From a bacterium (GTDB taxonomy: Bacteria > UBA8248), in NCBI GenBank assembly GCA_965207065.1, contig OZ242260.1, positions 1,120,001-1,184,000 of the forward strand: a stretch of 64,000 bases of DNA, given 5' to 3'. The position numbers were made by a program. Shown one piece after another: positions 9,501 to 64,000 of this stretch (the stretch's first letter is position 1; each line of letters opens with the position of its first letter).

Positions 9501-12500
9501 TGCTGTGGATGGGTTCTTGAGAATAACTGTGAGCACTCCAGCAGGCTCCTCCGCAATCCGCACCTCCAGAAAATAGCGATACCGCCCGTATCGCCGGGGT
9601 GCGCACGTCGTAACCTCCCTCACTTTCTGCACCATGCTTTTCCTTCCCGCCTAAAGAGCCATACAATGCCCGCCCGGTCACACAGATGAAAGGACGGCCA
9701 TGCCATACGAAAACCTATTGTATGAAGTCGAAGGGCCACTCGCCCTTATCACCATCAACCGCCCCGAGCGGCATAATGCCATATCCCTGGCCACGCTGGA
9801 CGATCTCCACGCCGCAATCGCCGATGCGGCGGCGGATGAAGCCGTCCGCGTCATCGCCATCACCGGAGCGGGCGAAAAGGCGTTCGCCTCAGGCTCGGAC
9901 TTGAAGGAAGTCGAGCACCGAAACCTCGCCATTGCGCTCACCCCGCTTGTGCAAGGGGTGGCGGAGCGACTGGAGAGAACGCCCAAGGCGACAATCGCGG
10001 CGATCAACGGCTATTGCATGGGCGGTGGACTCGAGGTGGCGCTCGGCTGTGATTTGCGTATCGCGACACCTGCCTCGAAATTCGCCACGCCGGAGGGTAG
10101 AATCGGCATCATCCCGGGCGGCGGCGCCACGCAGCGCCTGCCCCGCCTCATCGGACGCGCCTGGGCGATGGAGATGCTCCTGATGGGGGAGACCATCGAT
10201 GCGAAACAAGCACTCGAAATCGGCCTCATCACCCGGCTGGTCGAGCCGGATGAACTTATGCCCACCGTCAAGAAAATGGCCGAAAAACTCGCGGCCTACG
10301 CGCCTTTCGTGCCCCAGTTCATGAAGGCCATGGTGCACTACGGCATGGAGGGCAGCATGACGGCGGGTCTGGCGCTTGAGAAATTCGCCCAGGGTGCGCT
10401 TTGCGAGACCGAGGACAAGGCGGAGGGCCTGCGCGCCTTCATGGAGAAGAGAAAACCCGAATGGAAGGGCAGATGAGTTGAGCCTGAATGTCGCAGGCGT
10501 CCTGGAGACGTGCATCTACGCTGATGATCTCGAAGCGGCGGAGGCGTTCTACCGCTCCGTTTTGGGCCTCGAAGCCTTTCAGAAAGCGCCCGGACGCCAC
10601 GTTTTCTTTTACTGCGGGCCGCACGCCGTCTTCCTCGTCTTCAACCCCGAAGCGACCGCCCGTCCCGACATGAAGCTCGGCGTGCCGACGCACGGCGCGG
10701 CGGGGCCGGGGCACGTGACGTTCTCCATACGCGAGGCCGAGTTGCCCTCCTGGCGGGAGCGGCTGGCCGAACAAGGCGTGGGGGTCGAGAAGGAAGTCGA
10801 CTGGCCCGGTGGCGGTCGCTCCATCTATTTCAGGGACCCGGCGGGGAACAGCGTCGAACTCGCCTCCCCGCGCATCTGGCGGCTTCCAGAGCAATACTAA
10901 ACCATAACTCATTGTAAATCCTTATGTTTTAATTTTATTCCGCCGATTTTATTTTCACTTATTTATCGAAAGACACGTTCATGATTCCGTCCCGTGGACA
11001 ATCGTACTAACGGACACCATCATTCAACATAACATACTGAAATAAAATCGGTAATTATCATGTTTTCCTTTCCGCCTCCCCTTGCATTTACGCCATATTT
11101 ACGCTTTAATACTCTCACATTTGATGCCGGACGTATGCGATTTGATTACGGATCGTCCATATCCTCCGTGGCCTGCGACACGATTTCCAGGGAGCGCCCA
11201 TGCCGAAAAGAAGCGACACCAAGCTTACCAAACGCGTCGTCGACGTGCTATCCGTCGAGAAGAACGATGCCGTCTTCTGGGACCGGGAGCTGGCCGGCTT
11301 CGGGGTGCGGGTATACGCCACGGGTAGGAAGGTCTACGTGGTGCAGTCCCGAGGGCCGTGGGGACCGAGACGCGTGACGCTGGGCAGACACGGCGAGATG
11401 TCTTGTGATGAGGCGAGGAAACAAGCCGCCCTCGTCATCGACCGCATCAAGCGGGGCGAGGAGCCCGAGCCCAAGCCGCCCGAGGCGGCACCCACCGTGG
11501 CGGGCCTTGCCGGGCGCTTCATGCGCGACCACGCCGGGACGCACTGCAAGCCCGACACCGCTGCGTCGTACCGCTCCTTGATCGGGAACCACGTAGAACC
11601 GGCGCTGGGCGGGATGGCGCTCGCTGATGTTGGGCGGGCGGAGGTATCGGAGTTGCACCACCGGTTGCGAGGGACGCCCGCCGTGGCCAATGCGGTGGCG
11701 GGGCTGCTCTCTAAAATGTTCAAGATGGCCGAGGCGTGGGGCCTGGTTCCTGCCGGGACTAACCCGTGCCGGGGGCTTCGCCGCTACCGGACGCGGAAGC
11801 GCGAGCGGTTCCTGACGCAAGAGGAGTTCCGCCGTCTGGGCCGCGCGCTCCGAGACCTGGAGGCGGAGGGGAGGACGTGGGCGGCTGCGGTGGCGGCGAT
11901 CAGGCTCCTGGCGCTCACCGGTTGCAGGAGGAGCGAGATACTGGACTTGCACTGGGACGACGTGGACCGCACGGCGGGCGAGTTGAGACTTAAAGAAGCC
12001 AAGACGGGCCCGCGCATGGTTCCGCTGACGGAGCCCGTCAAGAGGGTGCTGGACGGGCTCCCCCGCTCGCCGGACAACCCCAGGGTGATCTCCTCGAAGC
12101 ACGGGAAGGGCCGCCTGGGGAACCTCTCCTCCTACTGGGGGGCCGTGAGGGAGCGGGCGGGTCTCGACGACGTGCGGCTCCATGACCTGAGACATAGCTA
12201 CGCATCGCGGGCGCTCGCGCTGGGCGAGAGTCTGTCCGCGATCGGCAGGCTTCTCGGCCACCGGCACGTGGTGAGCACGGCGCGCTACGCGCACCTGATG
12301 CGGGACGCCGAGAAGGCGGCGGCCGCCCGGGTGGGTGAGAGCATAGGCGTCCACGTCACGAACGGGAGGGTCGAGTGATGACGTCGAAGCCCATCATGGA
12401 AACGCTTTCCAATCGAGCGGTCGGGAAGCTCAAGGTCGAGAAGGACACGGTGTTCTGGGACCGGGACCTCACCGGCTTCGGCGTCAGGGTCTATCCCACG

Positions 12501-63500: not shown

Positions 63501-64000
63501 TGGCAAGCGATCACTATCACGGTTTGCTAAGACGAATTGCGCACACACAAACCACAGGCTTGGTTACCGCGGTCCGTAACCGATCCGCAAAGGCGGGTAA
63601 TGAAGAAATGGCGGACTTGGCAGACTTGATATCGCGTCATCTAAGTGAAGAGAAACTTCGTAGCATTTCGTTTGATGATCATTTGCATGACGCGATCGTT
63701 GAACTCGCAGAAGATTGGGGGGTGCGGATGCTGTCCTCCGGCGACGATGTGACTCGTTCGCAACTATCTTCGATTGTGAGATTGGCCAGCCGTGCCCCAT
63801 CGGTGAGATTGCTTCCATTGTTGAAACGGCTACTCATTGAAGAACTGCGCCGATACCGTGTCTTCTTGGAAGAAGCGGAAGCGGCCGGCTGGGCTCACGG
63901 GAAGGCTGTCAACGAAGCGCGCACACTCCACACACATGAATATCAGCGAGCGTTTGAGTCGATCAACTTTCCAGAGACCGCTGCACTGATGCGCGAATAT

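What a model noticed while it worked through the whole genome (the two positions that open the first line are those of the whole stretch)
10962..64000. The AT-core element is the integration target of the tandem-tyrosine-recombinase islands; a 67.8-kb island has attL/attR [...]
The tandem-recombinase islands insert into the dispersed AT core: 5 of 10 begin with a cut half-core (TTTATCGAAA| or ATATCGAT|) 200-250 bp before the recombinase pair, 3 with the GTA-type promoter still pointing at the recombinase genes. The island carrying DISARM-like, TrwB/TrwC and Slam genes is bounded by TTTATCGAAA direct repeats (attL 1130962, attR 1198749). Two of the islands (2.31-2.37 and 3.13-3.20 Mb) carry paralogous F-type tra regions, so the family are ICEs and their deleted derivatives.
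Evidence so far: Upstream sequences of all 10 pairs; half-site scan. In G021 both flanks are ~1 kb apart with an intact box-core-box element between them, and homology to the left flank stops at 1130971, the end of the repeat; contigs of 3 of 4 runs also leave the sequence at 1130971. Tra Pfam hits; second tra region 81.5% identical over 22 kb. The finding spans contig positions 1130962 to 1198758; this window holds only 1130962 to 1184000 of it.
(Added by a program. Inside this text positions count along the whole contig: contig position 1,120,001 is position 1 of the stretch shown here. "Call 12" and the like, gene names such as g00115 and contig names such as C1 are that model's own, and its searches are not shown. 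The text may have been shortened before it was handed on; [...] marks where a part breaks off. The agent that wrote the report below was given it as the finding of a first reader that could run no searches.)

Follow-up and report, generated by a model that had tools for sequence, protein, structure and literature searches.

The report
Islands targeting a GTA-linked chromosomal repeat
Mobile DNA islands with two side-by-side integrases insert precisely into a short repeat that is spread fairly evenly around the host chromosome and shares its promoters with a domesticated, phage-like gene-transfer system, so the islands may be using the host's own DNA-packaging landmarks.

Summary
Confirmed and extended. 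The 67.8-kb island is bounded by TTTATCGAAA repeats (window 10962; contig 1198749); three relatives show a clean empty site with an intact core. All five core-targeted islands of this genome now have both ends: three split the core in reverse at a second position, one has its right end displaced by an inversion. The other five pairs use other sites (four assigned). Integrase clades follow target; other clades hit other multicopy sequences (IS256 transposase, palindromic repeats). Two islands are complete MPF-F ICEs; this one lacks the mating-pore genes and its relaxase is split by a RIT element. The core is a host element older than the islands: 63 copies, more evenly spaced than chance, flanked by inward-pointing promoters of the class that drives five scattered phage-structural operons (GTA-like), with one copy in the leader of a Cox/Xis-like gene. 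Capture of that promoter is not enriched (9/21 vs 26/61), and I find it at 2 left ends here, not 3. Excision, transfer and the core's function are not shown.

The parts
10376..10900 (+). Host glyoxalase-family gene, left flank
   Evidence: Pfam PF00903; conserved next to the empty site in relatives
10905..10917 (-). IHF-like site in the host part of the target
   Evidence: Sequence read directly; match to the IHF consensus is recalled, not tested
10962..10971 (+). attL shared block TTTATCGAAA; strand exchange inferred within (A)TTTAYC(G)
   Evidence: positions 9-10 are AA in 20 of 20 left junctions but not in 13 of 63 cores (P=0.03)
10972..11199 (+). Island left arm: conserved ~230 bp with arm-type repeats TTTGATGCC (11120) and TTTGATTAC (11141)
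   Evidence: Found at all 10 pairs and at the 2308101 fragment; arm-site role inferred
11082..11110 (+). Island-borne sigma-70-like promoter (TTGCAT-17-TTTAAT) for the integrase pair
   Evidence: Same spacing at 10 of 10 pairs and 14 of 14 relatives read; not listed by the consensus scan
11200..12378 (+). Integrase 1 (arm-binding PF13356 + catalytic PF00589)
   Evidence: R-K-H-R-H-Y complete
12375..13550 (+). Integrase 2, same architecture, 56% identical to integrase 1
19349..19514 (-). Orphan right-arm copy ending in AAACGGGCG inside the island
   Evidence: HMM hit E 4.9e-5
27464..29551 (+). TrwB-type coupling protein
   Evidence: PF10412; 87-91% DNA identity to both ICEs
29548..30969 (+). 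MOBF relaxase (TrwC), N-terminal part
   Evidence: PF08751, NF041492
30970..34696 (-). RIT element (three tyrosine recombinases) inserted in trwC
   Evidence: 99.9-100% identical copies at 0.90 and 2.32 Mb
34714..36150 (+). TrwC helicase part, cut off by the RIT
   Evidence: AAA_30/UvrD_C_2
44607..57864 (-). DISARM class 1 cargo: drmD, drmMI, drmA, drmB, drmC
   Evidence: PADLOC and NCBIfam above cut-off for DrmA, DrmB, DrmD
57865..64000 (.). Island continues past the window to contig 1198758: ssb/DUF4326/SLOG backbone, Slam, HTH_17 (Xis-like) gene, right arm (1198641), attR 1198749-1198758 followed by the rest of the core

Best explanation
The island is a deleted, now probably immobile member of an ICE family whose signature is a pair of arm-binding tyrosine integrases. 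A circular form carrying joined right and left arms recombines with a short chromosomal site over a ~7-bp overlap. Shown: ends, empty sites, target conservation, intact catalytic residues, ICE gene sets. Inferred: the reaction itself, and that the two integrases act together (e.g. one per half-site or strand, as XerC/XerD do, recalled). Two clades independently use the same ~55-bp host element, at different positions and in opposite orientation. That element predates the islands and belongs to a domesticated GTA-like system: most likely a phased binding array for a GTA protein (Cox/Xis-like regulator or the Mu-gp27-like small terminase) that marks ~60 packaging or organising points. The islands most likely use it simply as an abundant, conserved, intergenic landing pad, as sister clades use IS256, palindromic repeats and a lipoprotein-gene leader.
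For: Empty sites; 19 of 19 full-length left arms end in the half core; joining ends of 898250, 1557626 and 1925766 rebuilds a core in reverse; the T/C variant at position 5 is shared by both ends of one G014 island (pairing by position); clades follow target and 76 of 76 proteins keep R-K-H-R-H-Y; tandem arrangement in nearly all of 53 loci incl. Alpha- and Gammaproteobacteria. Core older than islands: diverged homologues in G001 and G007, which have no such integrases. GTA link: 75 of 125 box doublets carry a -10-like hexamer at one fixed offset, 0-12 at other offsets; 48 of 63 cores have an inward, 0 an outward box promoter; lone ones head capsid, terminase-portal, small-terminase, lysis and tail operons; capsid gene single-copy and intact in 21 of 23 genus genomes, missing in the two that have 0 and 4 boxes; the core copy in the leader of the Cox/Xis-like gene matches each genome's own dispersed consensus. 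Landing-pad reading: no enrichment of promoter capture; other multicopy targets.
Against: No circle, attP junction or transfer seen (only contigs could be laid). G016 and G020 have GTA genes but almost no boxes or cores. Even spacing is strong in G000 after masking islands and in G011 and G007, but not significant in G022, G002, G008, G001. Two independent switches to the same element are more than a passive landing pad needs. No binding or packaging data; the Cox/Xis label rests on an atlas score of 0.90. Relatives are not independent samples.
Confidence: 0.62

Rival explanations
1. GTA-coupled satellites: the islands sit in the GTA element in order to sense or ride GTA induction. The GTA Cox/Xis-like protein bound at the host half of the att site acts as directionality factor, the box promoter boosts the integrases, or island DNA next to a packaging start is packaged preferentially.
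For: Two clades target the same element; core copy in the Cox/Xis-like gene leader, with the predicted recognition-helix residues changing where the core changes; core-targeting integrases occur only where the cores are (17 of 17); one G019 island sits in the leader copy itself.
Against: Promoter capture at background rate (9/21 vs 26/61; 3/10 vs 33/60); the islands carry their own promoter and an HTH_17 Xis-like gene; sister clades thrive on unrelated repeats; islands of 37-82 kb may exceed a headful (capacity unknown).
Confidence: 0.2
2. The integration is as described, but the core has nothing to do with packaging: it is a regulator-titration or nucleoid-organising site, or a non-autonomous repeat that picked up GTA promoters.
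For: No replication or packaging evidence; upstream modules differ between orthologous sites, as expected of a repeat under gene conversion; spacing signal uneven across genomes.
Against: Promoters point only inward (48 vs 0); three other repeat families show no even spacing; cores are decayed in G004, where the small terminase is frameshifted, and missing in G016, where it lacks its N-terminus.
Confidence: 0.13
3. The cores are scars or end sequences spread by the islands themselves, not a pre-existing target.
For: Exact co-occurrence of the exact core and the integrases within the genus (17 with both, 6 with neither).
Against: Homologous cores in G001 and G007 without the integrases; integrase pairs without cores in G030 and G032; cores at orthologous places across species; both halves are host-derived in two different cut positions.
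Confidence: 0.03
4. The 10-bp repeats are chance or an assembly artefact.
For: The 10-mer occurs 62 times in the genome.
Against: Arm motifs at both ends, empty sites in 8 relatives, same site occupied in 2 others, an identical contig across the left junction.
Confidence: 0.02

Closest known systems
IntSXT-subgroup ICEs and genomic islands (SXT, P4-like clusters; PMC8138268, passages read)
   Same: N-terminal DUF4102/arm-binding domain, attL/attR, MPF-F conjugation as in SXT
   Different: There clusters insert next to conserved single-copy genes (tRNA, guaA, prfC); here two integrases in tandem and multicopy non-genic targets. 'Tandem' does not occur in that paper's main text.
Pasteurellaceae ICEs with two integrases (ICEHpa1, ICEPmu1; PMC7438473, passages read)
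   Same: Two tyrosine recombinases of ~47% identity on one ICE, roles unresolved
   Different: Described as Xer-family, integrate at tRNA-Leu with a 56-bp repeat; no dispersed target
Neisserial MDA/Nf phage inserting into dRS3 repeats (PMC1797815, passages read)
   Same: A mobile element that targets an abundant dispersed intergenic host repeat at syntenic positions
   Different: Filamentous phage with a transposase/recombinase, not tyrosine integrase pairs on ICEs; dRS3 has no known GTA link
GInts, RIT elements, Tn554 (PMC5385486, passages read)
   Same: Several adjacent tyrosine recombinases in one mobile element
   Different: Three recombinases (plus GinD in GInts); here two, each with an arm-binding domain
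Gene transfer agents (RcGTA, DsGTA, CcGTA, BaGTA; PMC11841831, passages read)
   Same: Split, vertically inherited phage-structural operons under one promoter class; no replication gene seen among them
   Different: The review says known GTA small terminases lack a DNA-binding domain and no defined packaging sites are known; here a Mu-gp27-like small terminase and ~60 dedicated cis-elements
P2/P4 and phage 186 Cox/Apl (recalled, no call)
   Same: Xis-like protein binding arrays of repeats one helical turn apart between convergent promoters; satellite with P4-type integrase responding to the helper's Cox
   Different: Resemblance only; binding and induction untested

Membership tests
Site-specific tyrosine-integrase island | Direct repeats at both ends and an empty site in relatives | tested here: met
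Site-specific tyrosine-integrase island | Integrase with complete catalytic set next to one end | tested here: met
   38 of 38 pairs, both proteins (5 of 43 loci were skipped by my parser)
Site-specific tyrosine-integrase island | Excised circle / attP | not testable with these tools
   Only contigs could be laid
IntSXT subgroup | N-terminal DUF4102 arm-binding domain | tested here: met
   PF13356 above cut-off in both proteins; that PF13356 is DUF4102 is recalled
IntSXT subgroup | Placement by the subgroup's own HMM or tree | not tested
   HMMs not on hand
ICE (criteria in PMC5587801), islands at 2.31-2.37 and 3.13-3.20 Mb | VirB4, relaxase, coupling protein, three or more MPF genes, integrase | tested here: met
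   TraC, TraE/K/V/U/N/F, TrwB, unbroken TrwC in both
ICE, this window's island | VirB4 and MPF genes; intact relaxase | tested here: not met
   None among the ORFs scanned across the island; trwC split by RIT
RIT / GInt | Three adjacent recombinases | tested here: not met
   Two in nearly all of 53 loci; one locus shows a third copy
Pasteurellaceae two-integrase ICEs | tRNA-Leu target | tested here: not met
   No tRNA at either end
IMEX (host XerCD at dif; recalled) | No own recombinase, dif target | tested here: not met
   Own integrases; 63-copy target
Gene transfer agent (target's system) | Head, portal, terminase, tail and lysis genes, single copy, vertically kept | tested here: met
Gene transfer agent (target's system) | No own replication or integration genes | tested here: inconclusive
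   None among 47 neighbouring proteins scanned; genome not searched exhaustively
Gene transfer agent (target's system) | Particles carrying host DNA | not testable with these tools
   No particle data laid
DISARM class 1 (cargo) | drmD, drmMI, drmA, drmB, drmC in a row | tested here: met

The most novel reading that the evidence does not exclude
The host carries a GTA that packages from about 60 dedicated, evenly spaced chromosomal sites, and these twin-integrase ICEs are GTA satellites: they insert into those sites so that the GTA's Cox/Xis-like protein triggers their excision, or its terminase packages them, when the cell commits to lysis.
Probability: 0.2. Interest if true: 0.93.

Novelty: new variant of a known kind. 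Interest (0 to 1): 0.72.

Why it matters
Tyrosine-integrase islands are normally tied to one or a few conserved genes. This family keeps two intact integrases and has switched repeatedly to multicopy targets, giving natural pairs of close enzymes with mapped att sites for studying how specificity changes and why two integrases are kept. A 60-copy target lets many islands (defence systems, CRISPR, a sterol-type cyclase fusion) coexist and recombine; one inversion is documented here. The target ties ICE biology to a GTA-like system with defined cis-sites, which bears on the open question of how GTAs choose DNA and whether mobile elements exploit them.

Tried and rejected
H-NS nucleation site (unit's reverse complement resembles it, recalled): no PF00816 match in G000. 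Structured RNA: no Rfam family at gathering score in 5 loci; class A alignment of 18 copies has 0 compensatory pairs, class B (9 copies) 4 of 26 in one strand. Replichore or gene-orientation bias: none. Promoter capture as purpose: not enriched. Generic promoter scan missed the island promoter. oriT patterns: one unconvincing hit. Complex prediction of integrase 1 with 2: score 0.63, best control 0.01, contacts agree 92%, partner pLDDT 81; the mark was reached by 51 of 78 solved and 2 of 108 mismatched pairs; the interface is the C-terminal helix swap of solved tyrosine recombinases (recalled), so I give it no weight for a heteromer. Tree rows G000_898250 and L109 look to have integrase 1 and 2 swapped by my parser and were ignored; the integrase-2 tree is the quick one. 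Island 323870: ends not resolved. Plasmid and phage collections: best hits 47% and 33%, top rows mostly single copies. Literature searches with no description of this family or target: (open-access library only; supplements not read). Earlier scan notes were not available.

Full report
Setting. The window is G000:C1:1120001-1184000 of a 4.48-Mb, 59.5% GC single contig. Close relatives in the named collection are labelled Nitrospinota or unnamed bacteria; more distant integrase relatives are Alpha- and Gammaproteobacteria MAGs.

The observation. Ten tandem integrase pairs are present. A 27-bp core, TTTATCGAAAAACCCCGTGAATTTATC, has 63 merged copies at up to 5 mismatches, 62 of them outside my gene calls, without strand bias. 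The window island starts with TTTATCGAAA at 10962 and ends with the same block at contig 1198749, where the rest of the core follows. At this locus 17 relatives were read: 8 are empty with a core between the flanks (3 clean, 2 with an extra module, 3 joined to the next gene further right), 2 hold the same island type (71.7 kb in G013, about 5 kb in G003), 1 has a reverse-type right arm, 1 a shortened core at a contig end, 2 a core with another right neighbour, 3 no core. A 98.7%-identical contig from another sample leaves at 10971 exactly; one from the best holder spans the junction unchanged; two runs were uninformative.

Island ends. A left arm of about 230 bp occurs at all 10 pairs and one fragment; a right-arm motif has 37 hits at E below 0.001 among 42 listed. 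In the genus, 19 of 19 full-length left arms of the window's type for which loci were returned end in the half core; some are orthologous and one is duplicated. Positions 9-10 of the block are AA in 20 of 20 left junctions but not in 13 of 63 cores (P=0.03), while right junctions carry the host variants, and one G014 island has the position-5 variant at both ends: the exchange lies in about 7 bp, (A)TTTAYC(G). For islands 898250, 1557626 and 1925766 (41.6, 81.8, 36.8 kb) the joined outer flanks rebuild a core read in reverse, cut at a second position. For 2371246 the matching right end lies at 2293716 in the opposite orientation; I predicted an inversion, and G011 indeed joins both flanks across an intact core (1 of 5 relatives checked; the other 4 have a core but other right neighbours). 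So 5 of 5 core-targeted islands have both ends. Of the other five, three insert in the leader of a multicopy lipoprotein gene, with empty copies at 96700 and 4461256, one in another dispersed repeat (shared block AAGGAGC), one is unresolved.

The family. The pair is kept in nearly all of 53 loci. Both proteins carry PF13356 and PF00589 and all six catalytic residues in 38 of 38 pairs; clades match junction type, the window's type forming one clade of 13 (100/100) separate from the reverse type. Other clades end in an IS256-family transposase gene at the same codon in 4 loci or in a palindromic repeat with about 100 copies in G000; two orphan right arms abut tRNA genes. Two islands have TraC, MPF-F genes, TrwB and an unbroken TrwC, 81.5% alike over 22.3 kb. 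Six islands share ssb/DUF4326/SLOG. The window island keeps TrwB, Slam and an HTH_17 gene but no mating-pore genes were found, and a RIT element splits trwC: a deleted derivative carrying DISARM class 1.

What the target is. The exact core occurs in 17 of 23 genus genomes and 0 of 38 others, the same 17 that have the integrases. But box doublets are also abundant in G007 and G001 (64 and 37), which lack the integrases, and there they flank a diverged homologous core: the element is the host's and older than the islands. Of 27 exact cores in G002 most have an orthologous upstream flank with a core in G000, while 6 have syntenic downstream flanks (no matched control). Spacing is more even than random: CV 0.78 raw (P 0.02-0.03), 0.61 with islands masked (null 0.97, P 0.0001; three other repeats 1.03-1.11), 0.70 in G011 (P 0.005), 0.67 in G007 (P 0.0005), but 0.82-0.86 and not significant in G022, G002, G008, G001, all unmasked. 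The box is part of a promoter: 75 of 125 doublets have a -10-like hexamer at one offset (0-12 at the 17 others); 48 of 63 cores have one pointing inward, none outward. Lone copies head capsid-protease, terminase-portal, small terminase, lysis and tail operons scattered among host genes. The capsid, small terminase and a Cox/Xis-like gene are each present in 21 of 23 genus genomes and missing in G009 and G010, which have 0 and 4 boxes. One core lies in the leader of the Cox/Xis-like gene and matches each genome's own dispersed consensus; the residues after the conserved VLGY change where the core changes (confounded by descent). G004 has a frameshifted small terminase (possibly a sequencing error) and only 7 cores at 3 mismatches; G016 and G020 have GTA genes but no cores. 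The element is thus a cis-site of a GTA-like system; packaging start is my preferred role (Mu-gp27-like terminase; phased 10-bp units; even spacing), but this is inference.

Mechanism. Shown: boundaries, empty sites, target choice, gene sets. Inferred: attP x core recombination over a 7-bp overlap with arm sites and probably IHF; both integrases working together; excision aided by the island's HTH_17 protein; transfer by the complete ICEs. Whether the islands gain from the GTA is open. The box promoter points at the integrases in 9 of 21 forward and 3 of 10 reverse left ends, against 26 of 61 and 33 of 60 for cores in general (P 1.0 and 0.18), and each pair has its own promoter, so capture is incidental. 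For the satellite reading speak two independent switches to the same element and one G019 island in the regulator's own leader.

Comparison and verdict. Two integrases on one ICE (PMC7438473), multi-recombinase elements (PMC5385486), IntSXT ICEs (PMC8138268) and a phage that targets a dispersed repeat (PMC1797815) are known; I read passages of each, of PMC5587801, PMC11841831 and bioRxiv 2025.09.16.676606, no supplements. Ten searches of the open library found no description of this family or of an island targeting a GTA cis-element; subscription papers are not covered. New variant of a known kind, interest 0.72; the GTA-satellite reading has probability about 0.2.

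Noticed in passing
G000:C1 421914-428185, 437514-440666, 456710-460307, 463412-464283, 2480133-2486993 (L227-L229, L234): GTA-like system split into five operons under one box-promoter class, with a split gpA-like large terminase, Mu-gp27-like small terminase and a Cox/Xis-like gene; deserves its own study.
   Followed up: partly
L156:1836-5276 and L155:17218-19557 (island 1557626): Squalene epoxidase fused to a squalene-hopene/oxidosqualene-type cyclase (1146 aa) beside an MMPL/sterol-sensing protein, carried on a mobile island.
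   Followed up: no
L152:10805-18905; L016:12846-15374: Type I-E CRISPR-Cas genes in island 898250 and CBASS-like genes (DncV-like plus SAVED) in island 3128236.
   Followed up: no
window 30970-34696; G000:C1 902695-906421, 2323470-2327236: The same RIT element sits at the same site of trwC in two islands, in opposite orientations, and in a Toprim gene in a third.
   Followed up: partly
window 19349-19514 and 18 other places in G000: Orphan right arms ending in AAACGGGCG or a close variant, with variable flanks and no matching left arm, mostly inside islands; nested insertion followed by recombination between left ends is my guess.
   Followed up: partly
L256 (G019:C227): A reverse-type island lies in the core of the Cox/Xis-like gene leader, between the gene and its promoter.
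   Followed up: no
L242 (G004:C2 893115-893650): Small terminase gene frameshifted near residue 44 in the genome whose cores are decayed.
   Followed up: partly
L166-L192 (G002 cores): Gene order is kept upstream of cores but mostly broken downstream (6 of 27 syntenic): cores may mark hotspots of gene gain or rearrangement; no matched control.
   Followed up: partly
L013:15396-17972 and orthologous sites: An 858-aa secreted-looking protein without Pfam hit forms tandem paralog arrays just right of the empty site in several relatives and is absent in others.
   Followed up: no
G000:C1 1319515 (-), 159391 (+): Right arms of the family abut tRNA-Ser and a tRNA-Ala-like end without an integrase pair nearby.
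   Followed up: no
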